Source of the DNA: Patescibacteria group bacterium
GTDB lineage: Bacteria; Patescibacteriota; Microgenomatia; Levybacterales; UBA12049
DNA: 64,000 bases
Assembly (NCBI GenBank): GCA_026004395.1
Contig: BPJB01000001.1
Span: 905,226 to 969,225, forward strand
Direction: 5' to 3'
The notes below the pieces were generated by a model, which ran no database searches, was not told the origin of the DNA, and saw only the letters and a list, made by a program, of their open reading frames with translations. This document shows positions 1 to 54,586 of this stretch, piece by piece. Numbering within the stretch: the first letter of the stretch is position 1; each line of letters begins with the position of its first letter. A program made the translations under genes and the position numbers.

Positions 1-204
1 ACATCTCTTTGCACAGGAACTGCCAATAGATTTTCATCCAATAAATGGGCTGGCACTACGACAACTGGTGAAGAAGTCATCTGCAGTACTACAGGAGTCA
101 GCAGTCAAACTACGCGCGTAGGGTGGCAAGTTGAAGTCAATAATCTTCAACCTGCGGGAAGTTATACAGGAACAGTTATTCTCATTGCAACACCTACTTA
201 TTAA
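1..204 (+). CDS. C-terminal end of a secreted WxL-like surface protein (5' part lies outside the window)
   Basis: Frame 1 is open from the window edge to TAA at 202-204. The product ends ...NLQPAGSYTGTVILIATPTY. This is the same C-terminal motif as the 26267..27019 product (...QPAGTYTNVITYIATPTF) and the 28447..29925 product (...PSGEYQTAITYVATPTF). Confidence 0.5.
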   Translation, partial: TSLCTGTANRFSSNKWAGTTTTGEEVICSTTGVSSQTTRVGWQVEVNNLQPAGSYTGTVILIATPTY

Positions 205-211
205 CAAAATC

Positions 212-6738: not shown

Positions 6739-6753
6739 AATTATACCACAGAC

Positions 6754-20525: not shown

Positions 20526-20565
20526 TAAGTTTTGATTATGCGACTAAGATAAAGACTTTACTAAG

Positions 20566-34304: not shown

Positions 34305-37300
34305 ATGGACTTACTTGCCCGGTTCAAAAAATACTTAGAAGCACAGAAAAATCCGCCATCATACCTGACGGTTAAAAATTACCTATCAGATATTCGTCAA
34401 TTCATCACGTGGTATGAAACTACCCAACAGCAGGAATTCAAACCAAAGCAAATCACAAAACTTTTGATTGATGCGTATATCAACTACCGCAAGAACTTAA
34501 ATTCAGCTTCTGTCAGATCAACAGAAAGATACTTATCATCGCTTCGGAAGTTTTTCGACTTTCTTAAAGAGAAAAAATATATCAGCTCTAATCCACTCAA
34601 AGACCAAAACAGACTTACCAATAATCCTGATCCGTGGAAACTAAAAGCATTTAAAGATTATCTTTATGTCTATAACGCATCCAATCTAACTATAAAAAAC
34701 TATATCAATGATGTTAAACAGTTTCTGGACTGGGTTGCCAAATCTTCGGGAATAAAAACTCCAGATCAAGATACTATAACTTTTTGGAGAAATACCAAAA
34801 TTAATATATTTTCCTTGATTAATAAGGAGCTCTTACAAAAATACCGCAGCTATCTTCTCTCACAACTCAAATTATCAGAGAATCTTTATCTTGAAAAGCA
34901 GAACAAAGACATAAACACTACAACAATACAGCAATCAGGCAATGCAATCTCTCTATCAGATTCCAAAGAAGCAACTGCAACCGATTTGAATACCAAACAA
35001 GGACTCTCTATTCTTTCTATCAACCGCAAACTCTCATCACTGCGCAAATTCCTTTCATGGGCACAAGATGAAGGACTGGTACAAATTGATCTCTCTTCCC
35101 TCTCCAACATCAGACGCACTGCAGAGGTGAAAGCTATATCATCTGAAGATGCACAGCGCACCTTCACTGGCCCAAGTGCTGCAGGTGAATCAGAAAAAAC
35201 ACAACTGATTTCTCATCTTGCACCCTTAGATGACAGTTCTAAAGATAATCAAAATGACAAGTATCCAAGTCGCCAAATTGAAACTCTTGATACTGAACAA
35301 AAACATAAATACTCCTCATTCCCCCCTCTAAGACTTATCCAAAAGTTAGTAAAAGCTACTCTGCTAGGTATAGATCTGACAATCATCGCTGGTATTGCCA
35401 AATTACTTGAACAGATAACGTACATCAAATGGCTTGCCTCAGGTAAGCAGATATTTATAAAGAGTGCTAAAAAACAATTAGACTTTATTGTCAATAAAAA
35501 CATCAAATCCACGCTTGATAATACTCAACCAGAAAACCGATTTTCTAGTATTGTGGATCTAGTATCTAAAGAAAATCCAAGATTGGAAAAGAACTCAAAT
35601 ACTCAATATCATATACCAAATATCAAATCTCGCTTTCACCCCGCTCATCCAGAATTTACTACCCTGCCTCTGCATTACAGAATCTTGGGGCATCTGCGTC
35701 ATACTAGACCACAATGGTACATAAAGTATCATCAGTATCCGATCGTCCACTATTTCCATTTCGCAGCTCTTATCATCTTTATGAGTGTGATTGGATTTGG
35801 ACTGTACCGATCTTTCTTTGAGCAGCCACAAAAGGAAAAAACTCTTGCTGCTCCTCCAACAGCTCCTCCTAGGATCCTCTCTTTTCAAGGAAGACTAACA
35901 GATATTTCAGATAATCCCATCACCTCAGCTACACCGCTGAGATTTGCGATTTATAATGATCTCACTGCGTCAGGCTCAGCGCTACTTTGGCAGGAGGTGC
36001 AAACAGTTACACCAGACACAGATGGTGTCTTCTCTGTGTTGCTGGGAACAAATACTACTATTCCCTCTAGTGTCTTTACAGACAACTCAAGTCTATATCT
36101 TGGTGTTACGGTACAGACAGACCCTGAGCTTACACCTAGACAACAGATCGCAACAGTGGCATTTGCAGCCAACTCTGAGACGTTGCAGGGACTTTATCCT
36201 ATCACAGCAGCTGGTGCTGGCACATCCAATGTAGTTCTTGCCCTTGATTCATCCGGTAATTTGACAATTGGAGGATCAGCAACACCTAAATTTTCAGCAA
36301 CAGGCGGCGAATTTACCCTATCAGGTAATGTTCTCTCTCTGACAACAAATGTAGGATCCAATACCAACATCAATATTAGCCCAGATGGTAAAGGCGTAGT
36401 AAATATTATCAAACCGTTACAAAATACATCACTCAATAATAACATTACTACAGCTGCTGGAGCTGTAGAAGTAGATGATCTCTTCGCAGTTTTAGCCACA
36501 TCAAGTGGTCAATCAGCCTTTACTATCAATCAAAACGGTGCAGGACCACTGATTAGCGCATCAAGTAGTGGAATTGCTAAATTTACAGTTAATAACGATG
36601 GCTCTGCTTATTTTGCAGGAAATGTAGGCATAGGTATTACTTCACCTACTGGTATATTATCTTTAGCCAATTCTGCAGCTGGTGTTGAGATACTTTTCTC
36701 AGGTGCAAATGCGGCTAATATATATCAAAGTACGTCAGGACAATCTCTATATATTAATACCAATACCGGTGATCTCAGATTAGGAGCTAACGGCTCAGGA
36801 TCAAATGACTTAGTAATAAAATCTACTGGCAACATTGGTATTGGCAATACTACAGCTTCCAACTTCAAACTAGAAGTGACAGGCAATATTGGTCCATCCG
36901 CTGACGTGACCTATAATCTAGGATCACCATCTCTCAGATGGAACAATGTCTATGCCAACAACTTCATCGGCAGCGGCACAGGAGGTACCGCAGGCTATTG
37001 GCAATTAAATAACGGTGCGCTCTCTCCTGCATACAGCACCAATGATGTACTCATAGGAGGAACTGCTACCTCCAGTGCCAAATTTGGATTTATCAACGTC
37101 ATCGGCAGCGGCACACCTACTGCGACAATCTCTGGTAATTTTTCTATTCAAGTCCCAACTGGAACAAATCCTGCCATTAAAATTAATGCTCTCAATGGAG
37201 GATCTATCAACTTCCAAACAGCGACAACAGGACAAGGAGACGCTGGACTCACTTCACGTCTATTCATCAATAATAACGGCAACGTCGGCATCGGGACAAC

Positions 37301-38885
37301 AGCACCAGTACACAAACTAGAACTAGCCTCACACACAACAGCAGCTGGCGGCATAGGTTTTGGCACTGATGTAGAACTCTACAGAGGAGCTGCTAACACA
37401 CTCTACCTTGCCTCTGGTGACTCCCTCAACTTAGTATCAGGCAATCTACAAGTTGCTGGTACAACAGTTATCACCAGTGGTAGGATTATCCAGGCTGCCA
37501 ATGGATCTGCTGCCTCACCCTCATTCACCTTCGCATCCGACACCAACACAGGCATATTTGGGACTGGTAGTGATGTACTCGCTCTCTCAACTGCTGGTGT
37601 AGAAAGACTAAGAGTTGATGCCAGTGGCAATGTGGGTATTGGGACGACTGCACCAACTTCCAAACTAGACATCACCTCAACTGGTACAACCACCAACGGA
37701 TTAAATATCACAGCCAACTCCCTAACAACTGGAACAGGTTTCTCCCTCTCCTCCACATCAACAACTCTCACATCAGGTGGACTCCTCTCTCTTGACTGGT
37801 CCCCAACATCAGCCACTACAGCAACAGGTGATCTTCTCTCCATCAACATCGGTACCAACGGCAACATCGGCAAACTTTTCAACATCAAAGACGCAGGATC
37901 AAGTATCTTCTCCGTCTCAGAATCAACATTTGAAACATCTCTCCCCGTCAACTTCACCTCTCCAGGTGACGTCTCCATTGCCTACGACCTACTCTTCACC
38001 AACCCAACAGCCTCCTACATCAAATCATCAGCTCCTCTCTACATCCAAGCTGGTGAAACATTCAACTCCTCAGACCTCACACTTCAGACCTACAATGCTG
38101 GCAACGTCATCATTGACTCCCAAGCTCTTGTTACCAATCAAGCAGCCACCATCTCAGGTCAACTAGTTATCGGAACAACAAACCCCAACTCCGCTCACAT
38201 AGGCAACTTTTATCTGACCAACTCATCAACCTTTGGCAAAGCTCTTGCCATACTCAACCAAACAGAATCCGCTGACATCTTCACTGCCTCCTCCTCCGGC
38301 ACCACAAGATTTACCATATCCAACAACGGCACCCTCACTGCCACAGCTTACACAATAAACAATGGCTTACTATATACCAATACATCAGGTGTCATCTCTC
38401 AAGTTTCTGACACACCTGCCACCAACGAATGTCTCATCTTCAACGGATCTACCATCCTCTGGGATGCATGCTCAACTGGTGGAGGTGTCACTGGATCAGG
38501 CACCACCAACTACATACCCAAATGGAACTCTTCCTCCTCACTCACAGACTCAACCATCTTTGACAACGGCAACGTGGGTATTGGCACAACAACACCAACT
38601 ACCAAGTTAGAACTAGGCAGTGGTCAATTAGCAGTACCACTAGGATCAGCTACAACTCCATCCTACACCTTCAGCGGAGATCTCAATACCGGTATCTGGT
38701 CATCAGGAGCAGACACTCTCAACTTCTCCACTGGAGGATCTGAAAGAATAAGAATTATCAGCAACGGCAACGTCGGCATCGGGACGACGAGTCCAGCAGT
38801 AAAGCTACATGTTATAGGAACAGGTAAATTCGAAACAGGTCCTAATACATGGAACTGGATAGAAATAAATAGAGGCGGGGGATAA
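34305..38885 (+). CDS. giant membrane-anchored fibre protein 1: N-terminal tandem XerD-type SAM-like/core-binding domains, TM, then GNVGIGTT..KL.V tail-fibre-like repeats
   Basis: aa 1-100: LLARFKKYLEAQKNPPSYLTVKNYLSDIRQFITWYE...IDAYINYRKNLNSASVRSTERYLSSLRKFFDFLKEKKYISSNPL matches the phage-integrase N-terminal SAM-like domain. Two further partial copies follow (LKAFKDYLYVYNASNLTIKNYINDVKQFLDWV; SINRKLSSLRKFLSWAQDEGLV). There is no R..HxxR..Y catalytic domain. Strong TM at about aa 480 (IVHYFHFAALIIFMSVIGFGLY). About 1000 aa of Gly/Thr/Ser/Asn-rich repeats with recurring NGNVGIGTTAPxxKLEL. Confidence 0.75.
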   Translation: MDLLARFKKYLEAQKNPPSYLTVKNYLSDIRQFITWYETTQQQEFKPKQITKLLIDAYINYRKNLNSASVRSTERYLSSLRKFFDFLKEKKYISSNPLKDQNRLTNNPDPWKLKAFKDYLYVYNASNLTIKNYINDVKQFLDWVAKSSGIKTPDQDTITFWRNTKINIFSLINKELLQKYRSYLLSQLKLSENLYLEKQNKDINTTTIQQSGNAISLSDSKEATATDLNTKQGLSILSINRKLSSLRKFLSWAQDEGLVQIDLSSLSNIRRTAEVKAISSEDAQRTFTGPSAAGESEKTQLISHLAPLDDSSKDNQNDKYPSRQIETLDTEQKHKYSSFPPLRLIQKLVKATLLGIDLTIIAGIAKLLEQITYIKWLASGKQIFIKSAKKQLDFIVNKNIKSTLDNTQPENRFSSIVDLVSKENPRLEKNSNTQYHIPNIKSRFHPAHPEFTTLPLHYRILGHLRHTRPQWYIKYHQYPIVHYFHFAALIIFMSVIGFGLYRSFFEQPQKEKTLAAPPTAPPRILSFQGRLTDISDNPITSATPLRFAIYNDLTASGSALLWQEVQTVTPDTDGVFSVLLGTNTTIPSSVFTDNSSLYLGVTVQTDPELTPRQQIATVAFAANSETLQGLYPITAAGAGTSNVVLALDSSGNLTIGGSATPKFSATGGEFTLSGNVLSLTTNVGSNTNINISPDGKGVVNIIKPLQNTSLNNNITTAAGAVEVDDLFAVLATSSGQSAFTINQNGAGPLISASSSGIAKFTVNNDGSAYFAGNVGIGITSPTGILSLANSAAGVEILFSGANAANIYQSTSGQSLYINTNTGDLRLGANGSGSNDLVIKSTGNIGIGNTTASNFKLEVTGNIGPSADVTYNLGSPSLRWNNVYANNFIGSGTGGTAGYWQLNNGALSPAYSTNDVLIGGTATSSAKFGFINVIGSGTPTATISGNFSIQVPTGTNPAIKINALNGGSINFQTATTGQGDAGLTSRLFINNNGNVGIGTTAPVHKLELASHTTAAGGIGFGTDVELYRGAANTLYLASGDSLNLVSGNLQVAGTTVITSGRIIQAANGSAASPSFTFASDTNTGIFGTGSDVLALSTAGVERLRVDASGNVGIGTTAPTSKLDITSTGTTTNGLNITANSLTTGTGFSLSSTSTTLTSGGLLSLDWSPTSATTATGDLLSINIGTNGNIGKLFNIKDAGSSIFSVSESTFETSLPVNFTSPGDVSIAYDLLFTNPTASYIKSSAPLYIQAGETFNSSDLTLQTYNAGNVIIDSQALVTNQAATISGQLVIGTTNPNSAHIGNFYLTNSSTFGKALAILNQTESADIFTASSSGTTRFTISNNGTLTATAYTINNGLLYTNTSGVISQVSDTPATNECLIFNGSTILWDACSTGGGVTGSGTTNYIPKWNSSSSLTDSTIFDNGNVGIGTTTPTTKLELGSGQLAVPLGSATTPSYTFSGDLNTGIWSSGADTLNFSTGGSERIRIISNGNVGIGTTSPAVKLHVIGTGKFETGPNTWNWIEINRGGG

Positions 38886-39070
38886 GATATACTTCTGGTA
38901 GTGATGACACAAACAGAGGAATATGGTCCAATGGCCAATACGCGATGTCGGTATTTACACAAATGGTGTTAATAGAATTTTAGTCAAAAGGAGATTCTGG
39001 CAACGTCGGCATCGGGACAACAACACCCCTTGGCAAACTCAATGTTGATGGTGCTGCCACCGGCAAAGCA

Positions 39071-42000
39071 TTGGTCATCCTCAATGAAACTGGTGATCAG
39101 GCCATACTCACTGCCAGTAAGTCAGGATCAACCAAGTTCCTCATTGACAACAACGGCAATGTTGGCATTGGCACCACTACTATCACCCCAGGCTTCACCT
39201 TCGACAATATCGGACGCGGCAGATTCTCAACAGGTCTATCAATCGGCACAACTGCCACCACCAACACACTCGAACTCTCAGGTACTCTCAACCAAACCTC
39301 AGGTCAAGTAACCTTCGGTGGAAACGTAGATGCTACATCAGGTCTTGACGTCACAGGTGCCTCCCTCACCGTTGGAGGATCAGCCTTCACAGTCACCACC
39401 GCTGGAGTCATAACTGGTACATCCCAAACACTCACCTCAACAGGCAACGCCCTCACACTCTCTGGTGCTGGTGCCAATATATCCTTCAGCGGTGCTGGTC
39501 TTGCCCAAATCACAACAGCTGCCTCCCAACACCTCGCCCTCATGCCAGGCGGCAACGTGGGTATTGGGACGACAACACCCCAAATGAAACTCGATGTAGC
39601 AGGAGCAATAGGAATATCAGGCACAACTGTCATTGATGCATCAAGAAACCTAACCAACATCGCAGGAGTATCAACACACCTTAACCCAACAACTGCCAAC
39701 ACCTACAACCTAGGAACAGGAACTGGCAATCAATACCTCAACCTCTACGCACAAAACATCTACCAAAATGGTATAGCAGTCTGTGACGCCAATGGCAACA
39801 ACTGCCCAACAGGTGGCAACGCTGGACCATGGACAGAAACAGCAGGCATTGTCTACCTAGACACCACCTCCAACAAAGTCTCAATAGGTGACACAACAAC
39901 AGAACACAAACTAGAAGTAGAAGGAGCAATCACCGGCAAAGCACTAGTCTCCCTCTGGGAAAAAGGTGATCAGGACATCTTAGTAGCCTCCAACTCTGCT
40001 ACCCCCACCAACGTCTTCAGAATTACCAATAACGGCTCAATTATCAGCAATGGCACTATTACCGCATCAACCACTAATACCATCAATAGTCTATCCATCA
40101 ACAATGCATCCATCACCAACGCAGTTAATCTAACAGCATCAGGAACAATCACCTTCTCAGGATTAACTCCCAACAGATTAGTCACCACTGATCCCTCATC
40201 CAATCTCACCACCTCCATCTCCTCAGCCAACGTCGCTGCATCAGTAACTGACGAAACAGGAACTGGCAATCTAGTCTTTAACACCTCACCCTCATTCACA
40301 ACCAGCATCACAACAGGATCAACCTCCTTCTCCCTCCTCAATACAACAGCAACTACCATCAACGCCTTCGGTGCAGCAACAACACTGAATATAGGAGCAA
40401 ACTCCGGAACCTTAACACTTGGCAATCCAACTGTTGTTGGCACTCAAACAACTCAAAATCTCTGGAATACCACTGCCACAACCATCAACTTTGCAGGAGC
40501 AGCAACTACTTTGAATATGGGAGCCTCTTCTGGAACAACAACCATCAACAATGCCACTCTCTCTCTACCTAATGCCACCTCAGTCAATATCGCAGGAGCA
40601 TCAGCTATCATCAACCTCTCCTCCTCAACTGGTGCCAAACAAATACAAACAGGTGGAACTACCAACTTAGCCCTCATGCCAGGCGGCAACGTCGGCATCG
40701 GGACGACGAATCCGGGGGCTAAACTTGAAGTTAACGGAACTAGTGATATTGTTCAACTGAAGGTAAAACCAAATGGAAGTCAAACAGCTAATCTTATCGA
40801 AGTTGGAACAGGTAACTTAACCTTTGCCATAAATGGATCCAATAATGTCGCTGTCTCTACTCTTCCTTCAACTGATACCTTCCTAAGAGTCGGTTCTACA
40901 GGATATATCTCATTTAACTCATCTTCTGCTGTCTATGGTATTACTACCACTCCTGTTAACTTTGGTTCAGGAAACGTAGTTGGTATCAGCGCAGGTCCTG
41001 TTACAAATAACTCAGGCGCTGTTTCTGCAATAACAAGTATCTATGGAAGTGTGCGCACAGCGGGTGGAGTATCCAATATTGTAGCAGCAGGAAAAATTTT
41101 TGAAGCTGGTTCCCCTACGATTTCATCAGGTGGTATTACTACTCTTACAGGACTTTATATCAATCAACAAAAAGTAAGTGGTGTGACAACTGGTTATGGT
41201 ATCTATCAAGTATCCTCTGCAGACCTGAATTACTTCGCTGGCAACGTCGGCATCGGGACGACAGCACCAGTCCACAAACTAGAACTAGCTACCCATACAA
41301 CAGCAGCTGGTGGTATAGGTTTTGGCACTGATGTAGAACTCTACAGAGGAGCTGCTAACACACTCTACCTTGCCTCTGGTGACTCTCTCAACTTAGTATC
41401 CGGCAATCTACAAGTTGCTGGTACAACAGTTATCACCAGTGGTAGGATCATCCAGGCTGCCAATGGATCTGCTGCCTCACCCTCATTCACCTTCGCCTCC
41501 GACACCAACACAGGCATATTTGGAACTGGCGCTGATGTACTTGCTCTCTCAACTGCTGGAGTAGAGAGACTAAGAGTTGATGCCAGCGGCAATGTGGGTA
41601 TAAACACCACCTCACCCTCCTATAAACTAGACGTCCAAGGTGGATCAGGCATAGTAGCTCAGTTTAGTGGCAGAGTCATAGGCGCTGATGCTATCAACAC
41701 CAATGAGTTCGTAACTCTAGGTCAACTCCAAGGAGGCAGTGGATCCCTCTGGCTTGATGGTGGAGATTATCTATATCCTAACTCCTCCTTTGCCACCAAT
41801 GTCATGGTACCATCAGGAAGACTAGGTATAGGTCTAACATCTACTCCTTTCAAATTAGAAATCAATGGCAATGATCCCGGCAAAGCCCTAGTCTCCCTCA
41901 ACTACACTGGCACTGATCAAAACATCTTAGTTGCCTCTCAATCTGGAAATCTAAAGTTTGCTGTAGGATACAATGGCAATATCACATCAGCAACTGGTAC

Positions 42001-45000
42001 CCAATGGCTTCCCACCTCAGATTCAACCACTGCTTTGAATATTGCCAATGCTGCAGGAACTTCATTCGTCACCTTTGACAGTACTAATCAACGTGTTGGA
42101 ATTGGGACTACAGCACCAACTACCAAGTTAGAACTAGGCAGTGGTCAATTAGCAGTACCACTAGGATCAGCTACAACTCCATCCTACACCTTCAGCGGAG
42201 ATCTCAATACCGGAATCTGGTCATCAGGAGCAGACACTCTCAACTTCTCCACAGGAGGATCTGAAAGAATAAGAATTATCAGCAACGGCAACGTCGGCAT
42301 CGGGACGACGGGACCTACGGCAAAACTACAAATTGAAGGCTCTGGGGCAAATATATTCCTTAGCAACACGACCTCAAAGTATATCACTTTTGGAGCAGCC
42401 GGCTTTGCTCCTCCTGCTATAGATAGTGCCGGAACCAAATTAATCCTTTACGGTAGTGCCAATAATAATACTAATAACCCAAGATATGCGATGGGGATTG
42501 CACCATCAGAATTGTGGTATTCAAGTGGAGGTGTGCATAGGTGGTATACAGAAAGCGCAGGAACATGGACACCAAGGATGACAATAGATACCTCCGGCAA
42601 CGTCGGCATCGGGACGACAGCTCCTCTTGAAAAACTAGATGTATCAGGAAATGCAACAGTCTCTGGCAATCTCACCTTCTCTGGAGCAAGAACAATCGCC
42701 TCAAGAGCATTCACTCAACTAACCATTGGTGATACCCAAACTGGAAATATCCTTTTCTCACCAGCATCTGGAAAACAAATAATGTTCTTCTCCTCATCCA
42801 ACTACATAGACTCCTCTGGAAACCTTGTTCTCGCTGGCACAACAGGCATCACAGCATCAGGAACAGGTGCTGGTCTTAATTTCTCAGGCACTGGAACCCA
42901 TATCATCCAAGCAAGCGCTGGCACTCTCCAAATCAACGCCTTCACTCTAGGAGGAGCCATAACAGGCAACAACCAAAACATCTCCAGCATCGGCAACATC
43001 ACAGCCAATACCAGTGCCAATACCATAACAGGATTTGGTACTATTGGAACATCAGGTACTACAGCATTCCAAGGTATAACAGCAACACTCAATGGTACTG
43101 GCAACGCTCTCACCCTCTCTGGTGCTGGCGCCAACATCGCCTTTACTGGTGCTGGTCTTGCACAGATCACAACAGCTGCCTCCCAACACCTCGCCCTCAT
43201 GCCAGGCGGCAACGTCGGTATAAACACCACCTCACCCTCCTACAAACTAGACGTCCAAGGTGGATCAGGCATAGTAGCTCAGTTTAGTGGCAGAGTCATA
43301 GGCGCTGATGCTATCAACACCAATGAGTTCGTAACTCTAGGTCAACTCCAAGGAGGCAGTGGATCCCTCTGGCTTGATGGTGGAGACTATCTCTACCCCA
43401 ACTCCTCCTTTGCCACCAATGTCATGGTACCATCAGGAAGACTAGGTGTTGGTCTCTCCTCCACTCCCTTCAAACTGGAAATAACAGGTGCTGATGCTGG
43501 CAAAGCTCTAGCTTCCTTCAACTACACAGGCACTGATCAGAACATCCTTGTTGCTTCACAATCTGGCACACTCAAATTTGCTGTTGGATACAATGGCAAC
43601 ATCACCTCTGCAACAGGTACCAAATGGCTACCTACCTCAGACTCAACCACTGCTTTGAATATAGCCAACTCCTCTGGTACCTCCTTCGTCACCTTTGACA
43701 CTACCAATCAGAGAGTTGGAATTGGGACGACGGCACCTGGAGCAACATTAGACGTATCTGGGACTGATACTTTATTGCAAGATATAAGGTTTGTAGAAGC
43801 AAGCGGAATTAACTATATCCAAAGTACTAACAATAGAGGAGCAAACACATGGCAACCTCTCCACATTGGTGCTGGTTACAGTGGAAGCGATATTAAATTA
43901 GCAATAGACTCTACAGGCAACGTCGGCATCGGGACAACGGGACCGGGACAAAGATTAGATGTACAAGCTTCTGGAACAAATGATGATAGTATAAGACTCA
44001 CCACTGGAAATGCAGATGGTGGTTTACGCTTGAAAAATACTGGCACCGGCGGAGTTGAGTGGTTTATTGATTCTACATCAGGCTCAAGTGGTTACGGACA
44101 AGGAAAACTTGCGTTCGTACCAAATGTTGGGAGCACTCCAACAATGACATTAAGTGGCAGCAACGTAGGTATAAGCACCACAGCTCCAGGGGCATTACTG
44201 GATGTTAGAGGCAACGTTAGATTTCTTTCACAGACCAATAATTATTATCGTACATTTTTTGAAGCTACTACTGAAGGCGGATGGAATTTTCCGTCAATGA
44301 TAGTAGGACAACAAAGAGGAATTGTTATAAAAGATCGATCTGGACTAAGCGGAGGATTATGGCTAAATGGAGGAGATTATAATGCCATTGGTTCAAGAGG
44401 CGGAATAGGAGTTGGTTTAGTTACTGATCTTGGAACATATTTTGCATTAACCTCTTCATCTTCATTCATTAGATTTCACGATGGACAAATTATATTTTAT
44501 GGTAATACAGGATTAACCCCAGGATCAACGTTTTCGCCAACAGAACGTATACGTATTGATGCAACCGGCAACGTCGGCATCGGGACGACGAATCCAACAG
44601 AAAAATTAGAAGTAGTCGGAGATGTGAGGCTTAGGTCTGATAGTGATGTAAATACAAGTGTAGGATCTGGAGTATTGCAAATTTTAAACTCTGGGGGCAC
44701 AGCTGGTATTCATCTTGATGCTAACGAAATCCAAGCTATAGGAAATGATCTCCATATCAACAATGATAATCAAGTTAATACACATATTAACAACTTAGTT
44801 CACATAACTACAGGCGGCAACGTCGGCATCGGGACGACGGGTCCGGTAGCGAAGTTGGATGTGGCAGGATTAATAAAAGGTTCAAGTGGTTTTAGCTCCG
44901 ATGGTACAGCGAAAGTATTAACATACAGGTTGTCGAATTCAACCACAAATAGTGGCGATAGGTATATTGGAAGATTTACCGGCTCTCAATCTAACAGAAT

Positions 45001-47911: not shown

Positions 47912-48575
47912 AAACTTCATGTAATCGGAAACTACAACAGATAACTAATGATTTAGAAGCTATTGACCCCAGCAACCGTATTCTTTGTAGCATCAAATGA
48001 TACTCTATCAACTACATGGCTCATCGGTAAAAACTCCAGGAATCAATTAATACTTAAAGATAAAGATCCAAATACTACTCTTACTGGTCAACGGCAGGCA
48101 CAGTTGCACTTTCAAACACACAACGGCACTGATTGATGGAACTGAATATAATTTTGCAACAGCTGCATTAACTAGTACAAGCGACTACTGTTGTGATTGA
48201 AATTACTAATCCCAATGGCCTTAACGCAGTTTACTCAAATGCAGCATGGTTTACGAGTGTTTTCTTTAGGAACAATTATGCCACAGCTCTATAACAGTTG
48301 ACGCACGTTATGATGGACATCCAGGATCCTATCAAACAATTTGGTCAACAACAACAAACGATCAAAGAACATGGCTAAGTTCAGCTGTCACGACCACGCT
48401 CACGGGATGACAGTCCCAGAAAATCACATCGTTGGTGGATCACTTACCTTGGTACCAGCGCTGGAGTCCACTTAACTACGGATGGACTCCAAACAGTAGA
48501 ACGGCAACTATCTCAGTATGCTCTTGAACTAGGAACAACATTTTATCGGTCATCAACTTTCCTACTGGTAGCTGC
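47912..48575 (+). pseudogene. degenerate, stop-riddled remnant of fibre-repeat coding sequence between giant ORFs 2 and 3
   Basis: Directly after the TAG at 47909-47911 the sequence still encodes KLHVIGNYNR, the same KLHVIG motif that ends ORF 1. It then gives protein-like translation interrupted by many stops in all frames. Confidence 0.4.
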
Positions 48576-50147
48576 TTGATACTCCCTACAGCGGAACAGA
48601 ATCACCTCGCACTCATGCCAGGTGGCAACGTGGGTATAAACACCACCACTCCAGTCTATACCCTTGATGTTAATGGCACATTTAGATCCTCATCGACATC
48701 AAACGCTGTTTTCGGCAATGGTACAACAGGTGGAATCCAACTAGGAGATGGTACTATTACAAAAACTACAGGCAATCCCTTTACTATGAATAGTGGACTA
48801 ACACTTAGCCAAAATCTCGCAGTCAATGGCGGTTCAATCACCTCAACTGTTGATCTGACTCTCAATCCATCAGGCGGTCAAGTCTTCCTCGCTGATACTG
48901 ATACCCTAGCTATAGGAGGCCATGCAGGAGCTGCCTACAACGCAATATCCAACGCAGGTGGAACTCCATCCAACCCCAACGTCACATCAGACAACGATCT
49001 CTACATCCAAGGCGATCTGGACATCGGAGGCACACTATATGTCGGTGGATCTCAAATTGCCAATTACTGGCAGCGCAATGGCACAACTCTTGCCCCAACA
49101 ACTACTACAGACAGTGTCGTACTAGGAGGCAATACATCAACTGTTCACCAGTTTGAAGTTAATGGAGCAGTAACAGGCAAGGCTCTTGTTGCCCTCACTG
49201 AGACTGGTGATCAAAATATCATCACTGCCTCCTCTTCTGCTACAACAACTGTCTTCAATCTCTCACGCACAGGCGCAATCAGCGTTGCCGCAGGACAAGG
49301 ATTGGATACGATCTCAGCTGGAGCACTTAATATAGGTACCACCACCCAAACAGCACTTACTCTTGGACAATCAGGAGCAACAACAACTATTAATGGCTCA
49401 TCTCTAACTGTTGGTCCCACCTCATGGACAGCAACACCTACTATCTCAGGACTGATCACAGCCACAAGCGGACTCACTGCCAACGGAGCACTCACCGCTA
49501 ACAACGTCTTTACACTAGGAGACGGTGGTGACACAGGATCAATCAACACCTCAGACTGGGATATCTCAACCACAGGCGTTATGACTGGTATCTCAGGCAT
49601 AACAACAGATGGAGGATACACTCAGTCAGGTACTGCCATCAATACCTTCACCGGTGATCTATCTCTTGGAACAGGTGTACAGGTAGACTTCGCAGATGAA
49701 GTCGGTGACAAATTGTATCTTTTCTCCAATACATATGGAATAGGCATTGAATCCTCAACACTCACCAACTGGTCAGCAAGTACATTCCGCTGGAGAATAG
49801 GTGGCACATCTGTCTCAACTGGCACTGAATACATGACACTAACAAGCAGTGCTCTTAACCTTGCCAACAACACTCTGACCTCAACTGTGATCTCACCCTC
49901 AATCCCTCAGGAGGCCAAGTCTTCCTCGCTGATACGATACCCTAGCTATTGGAGGCCATGCAGGAGCTGCCTACAACGCAATATCCAACGCAGGTGGAAC
50001 TCCATCCAACCCCAACGTCACATCAGACAACGATCTCTACATCCAAGGCGATCTGGACATCGGAGGCACACTATATGTCGGTGGATCTCAAATTGCCAAT
50101 TACTGGCAGCGCATCGCTGGCAACCTCTCACCAATAAATCTCAATGA
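48576..50147 (+). CDS. fibre-protein fragment 3 (523 aa as called); the last ~85 codons are out-of-frame read-through of a duplicated segment
   Basis: Starts ...QNHLALMPGGNVGINTTTPVYTLDVNG, the motif seen in gene 2. The C-terminal Arg-rich tail (RYPSYWRPCRSCLQRNIQRRWNSIQPQRHIRQRS...) is the +1 frame of a copy of 48860-49077. Confidence 0.5.
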   Translation: MILPTAEQNHLALMPGGNVGINTTTPVYTLDVNGTFRSSSTSNAVFGNGTTGGIQLGDGTITKTTGNPFTMNSGLTLSQNLAVNGGSITSTVDLTLNPSGGQVFLADTDTLAIGGHAGAAYNAISNAGGTPSNPNVTSDNDLYIQGDLDIGGTLYVGGSQIANYWQRNGTTLAPTTTTDSVVLGGNTSTVHQFEVNGAVTGKALVALTETGDQNIITASSSATTTVFNLSRTGAISVAAGQGLDTISAGALNIGTTTQTALTLGQSGATTTINGSSLTVGPTSWTATPTISGLITATSGLTANGALTANNVFTLGDGGDTGSINTSDWDISTTGVMTGISGITTDGGYTQSGTAINTFTGDLSLGTGVQVDFADEVGDKLYLFSNTYGIGIESSTLTNWSASTFRWRIGGTSVSTGTEYMTLTSSALNLANNTLTSTVISPSIPQEAKSSSLIRYPSYWRPCRSCLQRNIQRRWNSIQPQRHIRQRSLHPRRSGHRRHTICRWISNCQLLAAHRWQPLTNKSQ

Positions 50148-50181
50148 CACAATCTCTGCTACTACATCAGCATCTACAGCA

Positions 50182-50715
50182 TTGACTATAACTCAAACTG
50201 GTGCATTTGATGTCGTCAGATTTGAAGATCAAGCATCAGATACAACACCATTCGTAATCGATCAAAATGGGAATGTCGGTATTGGTACCACAGCACCAGG
50301 GTACAAACTAGATGTAGCTGGAAGTGTCAATATTGGTAGTAATAGTCACTTATATTTTGCCGGAGGTAATCCTCATATTGAAAGTATATATGATGACTTT
50401 ATTTTCCAAGTTGATACTGACAATAATGCCACAGGTAGATTTTTCTTCAAAGACACAAATACCGATGTTATGACAATCGTCAATGGCAACGTGGGTATTG
50501 GTACAACTGCACCTACAGCCAAACTTGATATTACTGGTGATGCTTCCTCCTCCGGCTCTCTAGTACTTCGAGGTACTTCACCAACTACATTAGATATCTT
50601 AAATGGAGGAAGATTTGATATCCAAACCTCTGTAGGAGGAGATGCAGGACTTACTCCAAGATTGACAATCACCAGCAACGGCAATGTAGGCATCGGGACA
50701 ACGGGACCAGCTTGA
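50182..50715 (+). CDS. fibre-protein fragment 4 (177 aa; TTG start as called). Its frame extends upstream through the duplicated segment and downstream, via a 1-nt shift, into ORF 5
   Basis: Contains DQNGNVGIGTTAPGYKLDVAG and NGNVGIGTTAPTAKLDITG, and ends GNVGIGTTGPA*. The upstream in-frame sequence reads ...GGSQIANYWQRIAGNLSPINLNDTISATTSAS with no stop. Confidence 0.5.
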   Translation: MTITQTGAFDVVRFEDQASDTTPFVIDQNGNVGIGTTAPGYKLDVAGSVNIGSNSHLYFAGGNPHIESIYDDFIFQVDTDNNATGRFFFKDTNTDVMTIVNGNVGIGTTAPTAKLDITGDASSSGSLVLRGTSPTTLDILNGGRFDIQTSVGGDAGLTPRLTITSNGNVGIGTTGPA

Positions 50716-50899
50716 TCTTCTGGACGTAAATGGTGGCGTCATCATTCGCGATCGAGCTGCAATTCAAGGGACAGGCGCAAGCTGTAGCGCTCCTGGTGCT
50801 GGAACTGCAGGCTGGTGGTATGCTGATGCAGGAGATTGTTCAACTGTCTTTGCCGGGATAAATACTGCTACCAACGGCTCTGAGGTCTTTGGAATATAC

Positions 50900-53800
50900 A
50901 TGGGCAGCTGGGACTGGACAATAGATATTAATGGCAATGTCACCAATGCTGGCAATCTCACAGTCCAGGGTACAACAGGTATAACTGCTTCTGGAACTGG
51001 TGCTGGTCTTAACTTCTCTGGCACAGGAACGCACACAATCCAAGCAAGCGCTGGAACTTTGCAAATCAACGCATTTACTCTGGGAGGAGCTATCACAGGC
51101 AACAACCAAAATATCTCCAGTATCGGCAACATCACAGCCAATACAAGTGCCAATACCATCACAGGATTTGGCACCATAGGAACATCAGGCACAACAGCAT
51201 TCCAAGGAATAACAGCTACCCTCAGTGGTACTGGCAACGCTCTCACCCTCTCTGGTGCTGGTGCCAACATCGCCTTCACTGGTGCAGGTCTAGCCCAAAT
51301 CACAACAGCCGCCTCCCAACACCTCGCCCTCATGCCAGGCGGCAACGTGGGTATAGGCACTACTACTCCAACACTGGGCAAACTCACAGTACTTGGCACA
51401 ACGGCAGCTCAAACATTTGCTGATTATGACAATACAGCCTACTTCTTGGATCCAGCAACAACAACTACCTCACTCAACATCGCAGGTGGTGCCAATATTG
51501 GTGGTTATGCAACAGTCTCTGCCTCTCTTGCTGTTGGCTACACCAACGCACCTGCTGGTCCTGGACATGCCATCTTCGCAGGCAACTTAGGCATAGGTAC
51601 TACAGCACCAGTCCACAAACTAGAACTAGCCTCCCACACAACAGCAACTGGTGGCATAGGATTTGGCACTGATGTAGAACTCTACAGATCTGCTGCTGAT
51701 ACCCTCTCCCTTGCATCAGGTGACTCCCTCAACCTAGTCTCTGGCAATCTACAGGTTGGTAGTACAACAGTTATCACCAGTGGTAGGATTATTCAAGCTA
51801 CCAATGGCAGTGCTACATCTCCCTCATTCACCTTCTCCTCTGACACCAACACTGGCATATTTGGAACAGGTGCTGATGTACTCGCTATCTCAACTGCTGG
51901 CACAGAGAGAGTACGAATTGCTGCCAATGGCAATGTAGGTATAGGGACAACAACAACTGATTTCCAAACCACTATTCAAGAAAGCACTAATAGTAAAGGT
52001 ATCTTAGCGCTTCTTGGCGATGGCAACCAAACATTATTCACTGCCTCAATCTCAGGATCAACTAAGTTCTTAGTTGATAAGACTGGTAACGTCGGCATCG
52101 GGACTATAGCACCTAGTACCCTTTTGCATGTTGCCATGGACAACGGCACCCTACCTACATTAAGCTCTAGTACAGGTTTTGTAATTAATAATAATAGTGC
52201 AACGACAGACGATGTAAGTTTGTCTCTGGTAGCAGGAACAGCGGCAATGGCATGGCTTAGAATGGGTGATAGCGCTGATGAAAGTGCAGGAGCTGTCATA
52301 TATGACAACTCAGAGGATAGTATGTCACTCAGAGTTAACTCTGGAACACGTATAAAGATTACAAGTACCGGAAAAATTTCTCTTGGTGCCAGCGGTGTTA
52401 CTGAGCTTGGAAGTTCTAACATTCCTGATGGATCAGTTATTCTTCCTAATGGAGCATTTTGTGTCGACGATGGTGCTCAAAACTGTGATGACGCAGCTCG
52501 CGTAGCTGGAAGAATTTATGCTGAGTCAACAACAATTACTGCGATAGACTTGGCAGAAAATTATCCATCTAAAGACTCTACTATGGAAGCTGGAGACCTA
52601 GTAGTTGCCGATCCGGACAATACAGAGTATGTGAAGAAATCAACTGGCGCGTACCAGCCGTCTCTTATAGGTGTCATCTCAACCAAACCTGGTATTCTCC
52701 TTGGAGGATTTGGCGAGGAGGCAAAGAGATTCCCAGATGACAAAAAATACCCAATAGCTCTTGCCGGAAGAATACCAGTAAAAGTTTCAACGATCAATGG
52801 ACCCATCAAACGAGGCGACTACCTCACCTCCTCTCCAATTCCAGGTGTGGCGATGAAAGCAACTAGAGCTGGACAAATAGTCGCAAAAGCACTTGAGGAT
52901 TATAACACTCCTGATACGAATACAGTTGGCAAAATAGTCGCATTGGTTAACGTCTCTTGGTACGACCCACAGGTCTATATTGCAGACTCAGGTGACTTGA
53001 ATATCACAAACAACGCTGGTGACTTTAAAGCATGGGTTGCCGGACAACCAGTTGAGAGAAAAGCAGCCTATGCAGATGCTGTTATTGCACGTCTTACAAC
53101 AGGTATTGTAAAGACCAAACAATTACTTGTTGAAGGCACTGCTACATTCCTTGGAAGTGTCCAGATGCAGACATTGAATGTAGCCAATACTCTTAAAGCA
53201 GCATCTATTGAGGTTGCCAATAATCTCCAGGCAGGCACGATCAATGCCACAACTATAGCGGTCAATAGCCTCTCCATTGCCGGTCAGAATCTGAGAGATT
53301 ATATACTTGCAGTTGTTGAACAAGCTGGATTCTCTAAGAATCAAAATAACATCACCTCACCCATAGCTGATATTGATAGAATCCATACCAGCGTCATATC
53401 ACCGCTTGCTTCTGACTCTGCAATCTTGGTAAACGGCAAACTTGTCATCAAGAGAGGTAACGAAGGATCTGATGATTCTTCGACTTCGTCTCAAAATAAC
53501 ATTGCACTAGAAGTTCAAGGTTCAGCCTCAATTAGTGGAAATCTATCAGTCAGTGATGCAAGTATTGCTGGTACTCTTCGCGCTGGTAAGATCATCGCTG
53601 ATCAGATAGAGGGACTCGATGCACGCATTGCAAGTCTTGCAGCCAACGCTATCACCGCAACCAACGCAGCTATTGCGACAAACTCTACTGCATCGGATTC
53701 AGGAATACTTGCATCAGGAAGTGCAACTCTTGCTTCTCTGATCTCATCTACAATCGTTAGTGACTATGCTTCTGTTGCTAGCTTCACAGCAAATCTAGCC

Positions 53801-54586
53801 TTTGTACCCAATCTTAATGCGCAATTTGGGACATTTGAACAAGGACTGATGGCATTTGGACCATCATCCCTTTCTGATGTCTCTATTGCGGGACAACTCT
53901 CAATCAATGGCTCTATGATCTTTGCTGATAATAGTATCAATACACTTGGCGCTGATCTTCAGATACAGCCACTCAGACAAGGCAATATCTCATTTATGGC
54001 AGGTCTTGTCACCATAGATATTGACGGGAATATATCTGTTGCAGGGAATGCTACATTTGCAAAGAATGTTCGAGTCAATGGAACACTTGCAGCAAAAGTT
54101 ATCTCACCTGTTCCAGATGAAGACCTGGTCTTCAAGCTTCCGGGTACATCCAATAGCACACAACTTGCTGTTGATAGACCAAGTATTGTTGTCCAGAACG
54201 CATCCGGTTCAGCAGTCCTGAAGATCACTGATGAGGGAGATATCATCGCATCAGGCGAGGCTAATTTCAAAAATATTGCCACCAATACATTCAAGATCGT
54301 CAGAGGCGCGCAAGCTGATACCTCCCTCACCCAAACTATTGCCACAGCAAGTGCCGGAACAGCAACAATCAAGGCGGGTCAATTCGAGCGCACAATTATC
54401 AGTCCATTTGTCTCTGAAAAATCACTGATTTATATCACACCTGTCACCAATACCAATGGAGTCACACCTTATATCGCTCGTCAGACAGCTGAAGATGCAG
54501 AAAATGGTATCAAAGGATCATTCACAATTCGTATCCCTGTACTACAGACATCAGATGTGAAAGTTAACTGGTGGATTATTAATTAA
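50900..54586 (+). CDS. giant fibre protein 5 (1228 aa): N-terminal fibre repeats homologous to gene 2 plus a distinct, non-repetitive C-terminal ~700-aa region
   Basis: aa 20-160 are near-identical to gene 2 residues encoded at 42840-43215 (GTTGITASGTGAGLNFSGTGTH.IQASAGTLQINAFTLGGAITGNNQNISSIGNITANTSANTITGFGTIGTSGTTAFQGITATL.GTGNALTLSGAGANIAFTGAGLAQITTAASQHLALMPGGNVGI). The C-terminal part (..IDLAENYPSKDSTMEAGDLVVADPDNTEYVKKS..PIALAGRIPVKVSTINGPIKRGDYLTSSPIPGVAMKATRAGQIVAKALE..) lacks the repeats. Confidence 0.7.
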   Translation: MGSWDWTIDINGNVTNAGNLTVQGTTGITASGTGAGLNFSGTGTHTIQASAGTLQINAFTLGGAITGNNQNISSIGNITANTSANTITGFGTIGTSGTTAFQGITATLSGTGNALTLSGAGANIAFTGAGLAQITTAASQHLALMPGGNVGIGTTTPTLGKLTVLGTTAAQTFADYDNTAYFLDPATTTTSLNIAGGANIGGYATVSASLAVGYTNAPAGPGHAIFAGNLGIGTTAPVHKLELASHTTATGGIGFGTDVELYRSAADTLSLASGDSLNLVSGNLQVGSTTVITSGRIIQATNGSATSPSFTFSSDTNTGIFGTGADVLAISTAGTERVRIAANGNVGIGTTTTDFQTTIQESTNSKGILALLGDGNQTLFTASISGSTKFLVDKTGNVGIGTIAPSTLLHVAMDNGTLPTLSSSTGFVINNNSATTDDVSLSLVAGTAAMAWLRMGDSADESAGAVIYDNSEDSMSLRVNSGTRIKITSTGKISLGASGVTELGSSNIPDGSVILPNGAFCVDDGAQNCDDAARVAGRIYAESTTITAIDLAENYPSKDSTMEAGDLVVADPDNTEYVKKSTGAYQPSLIGVISTKPGILLGGFGEEAKRFPDDKKYPIALAGRIPVKVSTINGPIKRGDYLTSSPIPGVAMKATRAGQIVAKALEDYNTPDTNTVGKIVALVNVSWYDPQVYIADSGDLNITNNAGDFKAWVAGQPVERKAAYADAVIARLTTGIVKTKQLLVEGTATFLGSVQMQTLNVANTLKAASIEVANNLQAGTINATTIAVNSLSIAGQNLRDYILAVVEQAGFSKNQNNITSPIADIDRIHTSVISPLASDSAILVNGKLVIKRGNEGSDDSSTSSQNNIALEVQGSASISGNLSVSDASIAGTLRAGKIIADQIEGLDARIASLAANAITATNAAIATNSTASDSGILASGSATLASLISSTIVSDYASVASFTANLAFVPNLNAQFGTFEQGLMAFGPSSLSDVSIAGQLSINGSMIFADNSINTLGADLQIQPLRQGNISFMAGLVTIDIDGNISVAGNATFAKNVRVNGTLAAKVISPVPDEDLVFKLPGTSNSTQLAVDRPSIVVQNASGSAVLKITDEGDIIASGEANFKNIATNTFKIVRGAQADTSLTQTIATASAGTATIKAGQFERTIISPFVSEKSLIYITPVTNTNGVTPYIARQTAEDAENGIKGSFTIRIPVLQTSDVKVNWWIIN

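What the first reader, a model, noticed from the sequence alone, without database searches (positions are those of the whole stretch)
34305..54586. About 20 kb of fibre-repeat coding sequence split into five ORFs by frameshifts, in-frame stops and degenerate spacers
Seen directly at five junctions:
(i) Between ORF 1 (stop at 38883-38885) and ORF 2, the ORF 2 frame is open from 38984 with no ATG. The 33 codons before it (IRYTSGSDDTNRGIWSNGQYAMSVFTQMVLIEF*) resemble the repeat junction RYRVYSSGTTGW...ISILDSGNVGIG found at the end of ORF 2.
(ii) ORF 2 stops with a TAG inside GNVGIGTTGPG*KLHVIG. The KLHVIG motif after that stop also sits near the end of ORF 1.
(iii) 47912-48575 is protein-like but stop-riddled.
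(iv) ORF 3 runs out of frame into a duplicated segment, and ORF 4 is the in-frame continuation of that duplicate.
(v) ORF 4 ends GNVGIGTTGPA*. One nucleotide later the frame LDLLDVNGGVIIRD...GIYMGSWDW runs straight into ORF 5.

Either this is a fragmented ancestral gene of roughly 6700 codons (pseudogenisation or phase-variable frameshifts), or there are sequencing or assembly errors in a hyper-repetitive locus.
Basis: seen in the sequence. Interest (0 to 1): 0.7.

Follow-up and report, generated by a model that had tools for sequence, protein, structure and literature searches.

The report
Giant fibre gene broken by small indels
The five ORFs are pieces of one roughly 6,700-codon cell-surface fibre gene of a Levybacteria (CPR) bacterium that is uninterrupted in close relatives; here about 19 tiny lesions break it, and their pattern looks more like local assembly or consensus error than real gene decay or a designed five-gene layout.

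Summary
All five junctions are in the sequence as described. The ORFs are fragments of one gene. ORF1 carries the family's N-terminal anchor (two integrase SAM-like domains and one TM helix). ORF5 carries the family's C-terminal domain. Syntenic relatives encode both in single ORFs of 1,421 to more than 4,034 aa.

A near-identical metagenome contig (L021, 98.2% over 3.3 kb) is one open frame of 3,358 codons. It reads through the equivalents of junctions iii and v and through a non-orthologous variant of the junction iv module.

Measured against intact references, the window carries:
- TAT→TAG at 47909
- about 12 frameshifting indels in 47933-48545, mostly 1-2-nt insertions
- two 1-nt deletions, after 49888 and 49935
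- one extra C at 50711
- 2-3 lesions in 38877-38989

The neighbouring LamG gene has an extra TT at 59569-70.

The lesions are almost all indels and are extremely clustered. None lies in the 8.8-kb, most repetitive ORF2. The frame-corrected sequence still shows purifying selection (dN/dS 0.18). ORFs 2-5 have no credible starts, and no lesion sits in a simple-sequence tract.

Best reading: an intact giant gene with local consensus or assembly errors at strain-variable patches (about 0.55). Main rival: genuine, very recent inactivation (about 0.33). Phase variation is not supported. Interest is modest.

The parts
34305..38885 (+). ORF1. N-terminal piece of the giant fibre gene: two integrase-type SAM-like domains, one TM helix at about aa 480-505, the conserved post-TM domain, and the first fibre modules.
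   Evidence: Pfam PF02899, PF13495 and PF13102 match aa 2-99. The strongest hydrophobic segment is at aa 480-505. The N-terminal 900 aa match the complete relatives L006-L009. The start is an ATG with the AT-rich upstream typical of this genome.
38877..38989 (+). Junction (i). 2-3 small lesions inside one fibre module: a shift at the G5 run 38877-38881, then either an in-frame TAG at 38981-38983 or two further shifts (near 38950 and at the A4 run 38986-38989).
   Evidence: Translations and DNA. Minimum-lesion path. The module matches the last ORF2 module at E about 1e-11. No close external reference was found.
38984..47911 (+). ORF2. 2,975 open codons of fibre modules with 19 GNVGIGT-type motifs. 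It holds the long 84-99% identical internal repeats and has no lesion and no credible start.
   Evidence: The only in-frame start candidate is a TTG in GC-rich coding context. Repeat copies have dN/dS 0.03-0.32. 38% of its bases lie in exact repeated 21-mers.
47909..47911 (+). Junction (ii). An in-frame TAG where the intact homologous module of L021 has TAT (Tyr).
47912..48575 (+). Junction (iii). The 'spacer' is a fibre module plus a globular insert domain. Relative to the in-frame L021 homologue it carries about 12 frameshifting indels, mostly 1-2-nt insertions. One more shift near 48545 joins it to ORF3.
   Evidence: DNA alignment. Frameshift-aware protein-DNA alignment, with no further stops after correction. 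dN/dS 0.18. GC is 0.38-0.46, against 0.20-0.22 in true intergenic DNA.
48528..49888 (+). ORF3, in-frame part, up to the first 1-nt deletion.
   Evidence: 92% aa identity to L021 aa 1738-1990.
48840..49077 (+). Copy A, the intact paralogous segment and the likely donor of the conversion tract in copy B.
49878..50113 (+). Junction (iv), copy B. The 3' 163 nt (49951-50113) are identical to copy A. The 5' edge carries 6 substitutions and two 1-nt deletions (a T missing after 49888 and after 49935), which shift the frame from ORF3 to ORF4.
   Evidence: Alignment. Coordinates. Exact repeat 49951-50113. L001 and L021 proteins align across the shifts.
49936..50710 (+). ORF4 reading frame, which continues the copy B module.
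   Evidence: 98.7% aa identity to L021 aa 2243-2317 over 50485-50709.
50711..50711 (+). Junction (v). A single extra C (CCAG[C]TTGAT), absent from the 98%-identical intact L021. It creates the TGA and the shift into ORF5.
50712..54586 (+). ORF5. The last fibre modules plus the conserved family C-terminal region, with a weak Peptidase_G2/IMC-like segment at about ORF5 aa 516-602.
   Evidence: 98.3% aa identity to L021. The C-terminus is shared with single-ORF family members that also carry the SAM-like N-terminus. PF11962 scores 15.2 bits against a cut-off of 25. A family profile hits phi29 gp12 (3gqh) at E=0.002.

Best explanation
34305-54586 is one gene for a giant (about 6,700 aa) membrane-anchored, phage-tail-fibre-like surface fibre of a Candidatus Levybacteria (Patescibacteria/CPR) bacterium.

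Architecture: a cytoplasmic N-terminus with two integrase-type SAM-like domains, one TM helix, then about 32 'GNVGIGTTxPxxKL' fibre modules with interspersed globular inserts, then a conserved C-terminal region that may act as an intramolecular-chaperone-type folding domain. The module array is reshuffled quickly by duplication and gene conversion.

In this assembly the frame is interrupted by about 19 point lesions in four short patches. I judge these most likely to be base-level consensus or local-assembly errors. They sit at strain-variable patches that flank repeated motifs. On this reading the gene is intact and expressed as one protein in the cell.

Shown: single-gene ancestry, the lesion catalogue, and the absence of independent starts.
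Inferred: that the lesions are artefacts, and that the protein is a trimeric fibre for attachment to other cells.
For: Single gene:
- ORF1 has the family N-terminus and ORF5 the family C-terminus. Many 1,350-1,450-aa proteins carry both.
- Syntenic loci have one ORF: 1,421, 1,643, 2,929 and 2,944 aa complete, and at least 3,818 and 4,034 aa running off the locus.
- Synteny extends to the upstream Ig-like gene and to the downstream LamG, IS200-like and TPR genes.
- L021 is 98.2% identical over 50485-53833 and is open over 3,358 codons.
- ORFs 2-5 have only TTG or internal ATG candidates in GC-rich coding context. Real starts here are ATG after AT-rich DNA.
- Promoter and terminator matches are no more than chance.

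Artefact reading:
- 17-18 of about 19 lesions are 1-2-nt indels and only one is a nonsense substitution.
- About 13 lesions fall in 650 nt. None falls in ORF2 (8.8 kb), ORF1 (4.6 kb) or ORF5 (3.9 kb). If lesions were spread uniformly, this has binomial p of about 1e-15 (my calculation).
- After frame correction the worst patch has no other stop, about 86% aa identity to L021, and dN/dS 0.18. It therefore lacks the substitution load that should accompany a dozen neutral indels.
- The insertions are mostly non-homopolymer and not tandem duplications. This is unlike replication slippage.
- Lesions adjoin repeated k-mers or motifs and local clusters of strain differences.
- Elsewhere the assembly matches a relative without a single gap over 2.6 kb, including intergenic DNA.
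- Housekeeping genes at 1-31 kb show full Pfam coverage.

Precedent: giant genes prematurely terminated by single-base indels in long-read assemblies, and split by local errors in Illumina assemblies (bioRxiv 10.1101/2023.11.21.568195).
Against: - No reads are available, so no lesion could be tested directly.
- The window's genome is absent from every collection searched. There is no independent assembly of the same strain.
- One lesion is a substitution (TAT→TAG), which is less typical of indel-type consensus error.
- A second variable surface gene next door (LamG, TT insertion at 59569-70) is also broken, and L019 has lost that gene. This also fits real loss of a surface-adhesion module.
- If short-read polishing had been used, unique patches should have been the easiest to correct. 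The error model therefore needs local loss of coverage through strain heterogeneity, which is assumed and not shown.
- dN in the worst patch (0.091) is about twice that of the neighbouring ORF3 block (0.052). This would allow a short neutral period.
Confidence: 0.55

Rival explanations
1. Genuine, very recent inactivation. In this strain the giant fibre gene, and the adjacent LamG gene, really carry these lesions. At most the ORF1 product is made: an anchored 1,526-aa stub that lacks the C-terminal folding domain. The rest is an untranslated remnant. The lesion clusters would arise from error-prone synthesis at gene-conversion or recombination tract borders in a lineage with reduced DNA repair.
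For: - Relatives are intact, so the breaks are derived and strain-specific.
- Repeat copies and ORF5 versus L021 show long purifying selection (dN/dS 0.03-0.3), so any inactivation must be recent.
- The TAT→TAG change is a substitution.
- Both neighbouring variable surface genes are hit, while housekeeping genes are not.
- L019 lacks the LamG gene altogether, so this locus does lose functions in nature.
- The two deletions of junction iv lie exactly at the diverged edge of a conversion tract whose remaining 163 nt are identical to the donor.
- dN is doubled in the spacer patch.
Against: - Neutral decay should scatter lesions. Here about 13 of 19 lie in 650 nt and there are none in about 17 kb of open frame.
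- The ratio of 17-18 indels to one nonsense change is far above what pseudogenes normally show. That expectation comes from my own knowledge, not from a test here.
- A dozen indels arrive without a matching load of neutral substitutions or extra stops.
- The insertions are mostly not slippage-type.
Confidence: 0.33
2. A maintained expression-site plus silent-cassette arrangement. ORF1 is the expressed anchor gene. ORFs 2-5 are promoterless, start-less module stores that donate sequence by gene conversion to vary the surface fibre, as in pilE/pilS, vlsE or MgPa systems.
For: - A gene-conversion tract is visible (copy A to copy B).
- The module array upstream of about 50485 differs strongly between strains that are identical over 1.3 kb downstream.
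- The start-less pieces keep open frames and a purifying-selection signature.
Against: - The putative expression site is incomplete. The family's conserved C-terminal domain is present only in ORF5.
- All relatives encode everything in one ORF.
- Junctions iii-v are simple point lesions relative to intact sequence, not cassette boundaries.
- Intragenic conversion among repeats explains the variability without silent cassettes.
Confidence: 0.05
3. Phase variation or programmed recoding. The frameshifts are reversible on/off switches, or ribosomes bypass them by frameshifting or stop read-through.
For: Surface fibres are typical contingency loci. One lesion lies at a G5 run and one possibly at an A4 run.
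Against: - There is no simple-sequence tract of switching length at any lesion.
- Most lesions are non-homopolymer 1-2-nt insertions.
- About 19 lesions of mixed sign, including TAG and TGA stops, cannot all be recoded.
- The close relative simply lacks them.
- Slippery heptamers were not searched for formally.
Confidence: 0.03

Closest known systems
Uncharacterised Levybacteria/Microgenomates family annotated 'site-specific integrase' or hypothetical protein (for example P0029, P0042, P0045, P0047; giant versions in loci L001, L006, L009, L017, L021)
   Same: - Two N-terminal Phage_int_SAM domains, one TM helix and the conserved 'APPRILSFQGRLTD...' ectodomain.
- A variable fibre region and the conserved C-terminal region.
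- The same genomic neighbourhood.
   Different: - If repaired, this copy would be the longest seen here, at about 6,700 aa. Fully read relatives reach 2,944 aa, and relatives running off their loci reach at least 4,034 aa.
- This copy is interrupted by about 19 lesions.
Bdellovibrio MAT (mosaic adhesive trimer) fibres, Bd2133/Bd3182 (PMC10769870), and phage tail fibres or spikes with a C-terminal intramolecular chaperone (T5 pb1, K1F endosialidase, phi29 gp12)
   Same: - A repeated V-G-x-G-T-T-x-P-x-x-K-L motif resembling the MAT 'capping loop' consensus V-G-G/N-pi-x-x-P-x-x-x-L.
- Sequence or profile hits to 8ond, 8ojn and 8on4 and to the phi29 gp12 C-terminal fragment 3gqh.
- A modular, chimeric build with exchangeable modules.
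   Different: - There is no signal peptide followed by the conserved 130-aa MAT N-domain. A cytoplasmic SAM-like pair and a TM anchor take its place.
- No S74 SDxxxK domain was detected.
- The G2-type IMC match is below threshold and is followed by about 600 more residues.
- The protein is 5-6 times longer.
Giant genes split by assembly or consensus errors (West-Roberts et al., bioRxiv 10.1101/2023.11.21.568195)
   Same: A giant repeat-rich surface protein gene appears as adjacent ORFs. The paper reports single-base indels in long-read assemblies, and local errors in Illumina assemblies, that prematurely terminate or split giant genes.
   Different: The phylum and protein family differ. In the paper the errors were demonstrated with reads. 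Here they are only inferred from the lesion spectrum.

Membership tests
Levybacteria SAM-like-anchored fibre family | N-terminal pair of integrase-type SAM-like domains | tested here: met
   PF02899 at 5e-17, plus PF13495 and PF13102, in ORF1 aa 2-99. Homologues carry the same domains.
Levybacteria SAM-like-anchored fibre family | Single TM helix followed by the conserved ectodomain (APPRILSFQGRLTD...LLWQE...) | tested here: met
   Hydrophobic peak at aa 480-505. The motif is present in ORF1 and in L006-L009.
Levybacteria SAM-like-anchored fibre family | Conserved C-terminal region on the same polypeptide as the N-terminal anchor | tested here: not met
   The C-terminal region is present (ORF5). 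In this assembly it is separated from the anchor by at least 11 frame breaks or stops. Relatives have one ORF.
Levybacteria SAM-like-anchored fibre family | Conserved gene neighbourhood | tested here: met
   Upstream Ig-like gene. Downstream LamG, IS200-like and TPR genes.
MAT / phage tail-fibre-like trimeric beta-helical fibres | Repeated capping-loop motif V-G-G/N-pi-x-x-P-x-x-x-L | tested here: inconclusive
   There are 32 GNVGIGT-type motifs. The motif has the same character as the published consensus, but the Pro lies one residue further along.
MAT / phage tail-fibre-like trimeric beta-helical fibres | Sequence similarity to solved fibre structures | tested here: met
   8ond (Bd2133) at E=0.0014 with the single sequence and 4e-6 with the family profile. 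8ojn and 8on4 are weaker.
MAT / phage tail-fibre-like trimeric beta-helical fibres | Signal peptide plus the conserved ~130-aa beta-rich N-domain; S74 domain with SDxxxK | tested here: not met
   The N-terminus is a SAM-like pair plus a TM helix. There is no PF13884 hit in any piece, even at E up to 10.
MAT / phage tail-fibre-like trimeric beta-helical fibres | Trimeric assembly | not testable with these tools
   No trimer was modelled. Trimerisation is inferred from relatives only.
Peptidase_G2 intramolecular-chaperone (phi29 gp12-type) domain | Pfam PF11962 match above the gathering score | tested here: inconclusive
   15.2 bits against a cut-off of 25, E=0.015, at ORF5 aa 516-602. Many homologues carry precomputed PF11962 hits. 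The family profile hits 3gqh at E=0.002.
Phase-variable contingency gene | A simple-sequence tract (long homopolymer or short tandem repeat) at the frameshift site | tested here: not met
   The longest tracts at any lesion are G5 and A4. Most lesions are non-repeat insertions.
Silent-cassette antigenic variation locus (pilE/pilS, vlsE type) | A complete expression site plus promoterless partial cassettes, with conversion tracts | tested here: not met
   A conversion tract is seen. ORF1 lacks the family C-terminal domain, and relatives have a single ORF.

The most novel reading that the evidence does not exclude
The lesions are real, and the start-less open pieces ORF2-ORF5 are retained as a recombination reservoir. 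Gene conversion among modules, which is visible at 49951-50113, would continually rebuild the expressed fibre. That would make this a CPR counterpart of silent-cassette antigenic variation. In that case the indel clusters would be scars of mutagenic repair at conversion-tract borders.
Probability: 0.05. Interest if true: 0.8.

Novelty: new member of a known kind. Interest (0 to 1): 0.3.

Why it matters
If the breaks are errors, the practical lesson is that this record under-annotates one of the largest CPR surface proteins as five hypothetical fragments. It should be repaired. The lesion list given here says exactly where.

If the breaks are real, a strain of an ultrasmall, presumably episymbiotic bacterium has just switched off its giant attachment fibre together with the neighbouring LamG adhesin-like gene. 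That bears on host range and lifestyle.

In either case, comparison with L021 shows that the module array of this fibre is reshuffled between strains that are otherwise nearly identical. This marks the gene as a fast-evolving cell-contact determinant. The family is still mis-annotated as 'site-specific integrase'.

Tried and rejected
- Exact-sequence look-ups of window proteins found nothing: ORF5, LamG, MreB, TPR and IS200-like. No independent assembly of this strain is available.
- The N-terminal protein search returned only contig-end 'partial' proteins. No hit or 14 exceeds 1,449 aa, although giant relatives exist in the genome contigs. The protein collection therefore appears to under-represent giant proteins, and the giants were found only by DNA-level locus scans.
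- L003 looked like a second split gene, but the break is a run of N.
- The ComEC-like pair (20566-21819 and 19644-20525) was considered as a further frameshift. It was rejected because stops in both frames mean one indel cannot fuse them.
- blastx of the spacer against relatives from the genome scan gave nothing internal. Homology appeared only once L021 was found.
- Viral-contig scans gave nothing close: the ORF2 N-terminus and an exact spacer 30-mer.
- No close reference was found for junction (i). Its 2-versus-3-lesion reading stays open, because the two reconstructions score alike.
- The promoter and terminator scan is at chance level and shows nothing at the junctions.
- Pfam on the three overlapping frames at 33542-34182 found nothing.
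- Searches failed because I gave wrong frames.
- Uniform long-read error was rejected. The housekeeping half of the window is intact, and there are no gaps against L045 over 2.6 kb.
- Collapse or mis-joining inside the long repeats was rejected. ORF2 is flawless, and joins within a shared motif would preserve the frame.
- An alternative genetic code was not pursued. The breaks include frameshifts and all three stop codons.

Full report
**Setting**

The window is a bacterial chromosome segment. It carries LeuRS, ArgRS, MreB, glycosyltransferases, a sortase and ComEC-like genes. GC is about 37%. All informative homologues come from Candidatus Levybacteria/Levyibacteriota, Microgenomates and other Patescibacteria. 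True intergenic DNA here has 20-22% GC. The whole stretch 34.3-54.6 kb, including the 'spacers', has 38-55% GC.

**Observation**

The five ORFs and all five junction descriptions are correct. Reading from the ORF1 ATG (34305) to the ORF5 stop (54586) needs at least 11 frame changes or stop read-throughs.

**One gene**

- ORF1 begins with integrase-type SAM-like domains and has one strong hydrophobic helix at aa 480-505.
- ORF5's C-terminal 828 aa retrieve many complete 1,350-1,450-aa proteins that also carry the SAM-like N-terminus.
- A genome-contig scan found 18 loci, several with the same downstream genes: LamG giant, IS200-like and TPR protein.
- The upstream Ig-like gene is also shared.
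- In these loci the fibre gene is a single open frame:
  - 1,421 aa (L008), 1,643 aa (L007), 2,929 aa (L006) and 2,944 aa (L009), all complete and with the ORF1-type N-terminus.
  - At least 3,818 aa (L017) and at least 4,034 aa (L001), both running off the fetched locus.
- L003's apparent split is a run of N.
- ORFs 2-5 have no credible starts. Real genes here start with ATG after AT-rich DNA, whereas the candidates are TTG or internal codons in GC-rich coding context.
- Promoter and terminator matches are at chance level.

**The key reference**

A metagenome scan with the ORF4 frame found L021 (FWPU01008138.1). It is one open frame of 3,358 codons over the whole 10,076-nt fetched locus.

- It is 98.2% identical to window 50485-53833. 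This includes 1,293 nt with no difference.
- Further upstream it carries a different arrangement of modules. ORF3 versus its best L021 match has dS 0.56.
- So the array is reshuffled between nearly identical strains.

**Lesion catalogue**

- (v) The window has one extra C at 50711. L021 reads GNVGIGTTGPVDLLDVNGG.
- (iv) Copy B (49878-50113) equals copy A (48840-49077), except for a diverged 5' edge with two 1-nt deletions after 49888 and 49935. Its last 163 nt are identical to copy A, which indicates a recent conversion tract. L021 has another variant of the module at this place.
- (ii) TAG at 47909-47911 stands where L021 has TAT.
- (iii) 47912-48575 is homologous throughout to an in-frame L021 module with a globular insert.
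  - A frameshift-aware alignment over 47893-48431 needs nine frameshifting insertions (+2, +1, +1, +1, +2, +1, +2, +1, +1), one codon insertion and one 2-nt deletion.
  - At least one more shift, near 48545, is inferred by eye from the poorer 3' part of the alignment.
  - After correction there is no further stop. Over the 163 clean codons, aa identity is about 86%, dS 0.50 and dN 0.091, so dN/dS is 0.18.
- (i) There is a shift at the G5 run 38877-38881. It is followed either by a TAG at 38981 or by two more shifts, one of them at the A4 run 38986-38989. The module is of the same type as the last ORF2 module. No close reference exists.
- The neighbouring LamG gene has an extra TT at 59569-70 relative to an intact 1,768-aa orthologue (L045). 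Its last Laminin_G_3 domain is encoded in another frame, running to 60269.

**History of the sequence**

Paralogous repeat copies inside the region, including ORF2 versus ORF5 copies, differ mostly at synonymous sites (dN/dS 0.03-0.32, dS up to 0.7). ORF5 versus L021 gives dS 0.049 and dN 0.010. All parts were therefore translated for almost all of their history, and the breaks are very young or not real.

**Real or artefact?**

Against ordinary decay:
- The lesions are nearly all indels, about 17-18 against one nonsense change.
- About 13 of 19 lie in 650 nt. About 17 kb of ORF1, ORF2 and ORF5 have none.
- The worst patch lacks the substitution load and extra stops that a dozen neutral indels should bring.
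- The insertions are mostly not homopolymer extensions or tandem duplications.

Against generic sequencing error:
- The housekeeping half of the window is intact.
- A 2.6-kb alignment to L045, including intergenic DNA, has no gap.

Against repeat collapse:
- ORF2 has 38% of its bases in exact repeated 21-mers and is flawless.
- The lesions lie in unique sequence bordering repeated k-mers or motifs, and within local clusters of strain differences.

The simplest account is local low-quality consensus, or local mis-assembly, where co-occurring strains differ structurally. Such errors are documented for giant genes. I give this about 0.55. Genuine recent inactivation gets about 0.33. It would fit the TAT→TAG change, the second broken surface gene, and the loss of LamG in L019. 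Phase variation, recoding and a silent-cassette system are unlikely.

**What the protein is like**

The GNVGIGT region hits solved Bdellovibrio MAT fibre fragments: 8ond and 8ojn with the single sequence, and 8ond at 4e-6 with a family profile. The motif resembles the MAT 'capping loop' consensus described in PMC10769870. A weak Peptidase_G2/IMC signal suggests a tail-fibre-like folding module. Both S74 membership and full MAT membership fail on defining features. The function, a trimeric contact fibre, is inferred.

**Verdict**

The five-ORF layout is not a biological design. It is probably an assembly artefact and otherwise a very recent pseudogene. The gene is a new, very large member of an uncharacterised CPR fibre family.

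Noticed in passing
window 55009-60269 (+), lesion at 59569-59570: The adjacent giant LamG/DUF2341/PA14 surface protein gene is also frameshifted. An extra TT lies just before an HWKFDE linker motif. The last Laminin_G_3 domain is in another frame, whereas L045 has an intact 1,768-aa gene. L019, a 77% relative, lacks this gene entirely.
   Followed up: yes
window 47.9-50.5 kb versus L021 1-6700: Two strains are identical over 1.3 kb of the fibre C-terminus but carry very different module arrays upstream. Differences in the shared part fall in short clusters (51325-51394, 51775-51883, 52327-52495). This points to frequent gene conversion or recombination in the array.
   Followed up: partly
window 34305-35800 (ORF1 aa 1-500) and homologues: A surface fibre has a cytoplasmic N-terminus made of integrase-type SAM-like (DNA-binding-type) domains and no recombinase catalytic domain. 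Databases therefore name the family 'site-specific integrase' or XerD. What these domains do in a fibre anchor is unexplained.
   Followed up: no
window 60397-61041 (-): An IS200-like Y1 transposase homologue sits at the same position next to the TPR gene in L003, L019 and L045. L001 has it in the opposite orientation. This conserved placement suggests a resident or domesticated gene rather than a recent insertion.
   Followed up: partly
window 33542-34182 (+): Three successive overlapping open frames (132, 77 and 89 codons) lie in coding-like GC just upstream of ORF1, in a 2-kb interval that relatives lack. They may be a decayed or frameshifted small gene. Pfam finds nothing.
   Followed up: partly
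window 19644-21819 (-): The ComEC-like Competence domain and the TM plus Lactamase_B domain are separate adjacent ORFs. A single indel cannot fuse them, so this is either a natural split or more than one lesion.
   Followed up: partly
window 131-1156, 10353-11276, 27034-28131, 31362-32246: The surroundings are rich in cell-surface functions: two WxL-interacting-protein-like domains, a sortase and an Ig-like protein. This fits a surface or adhesion gene neighbourhood.
   Followed up: no
L003 about 6750-6860: The only relative that looked split is interrupted by a run of N flanked by the same repeat sequence. This shows how assemblies fail in this gene.
   Followed up: yes
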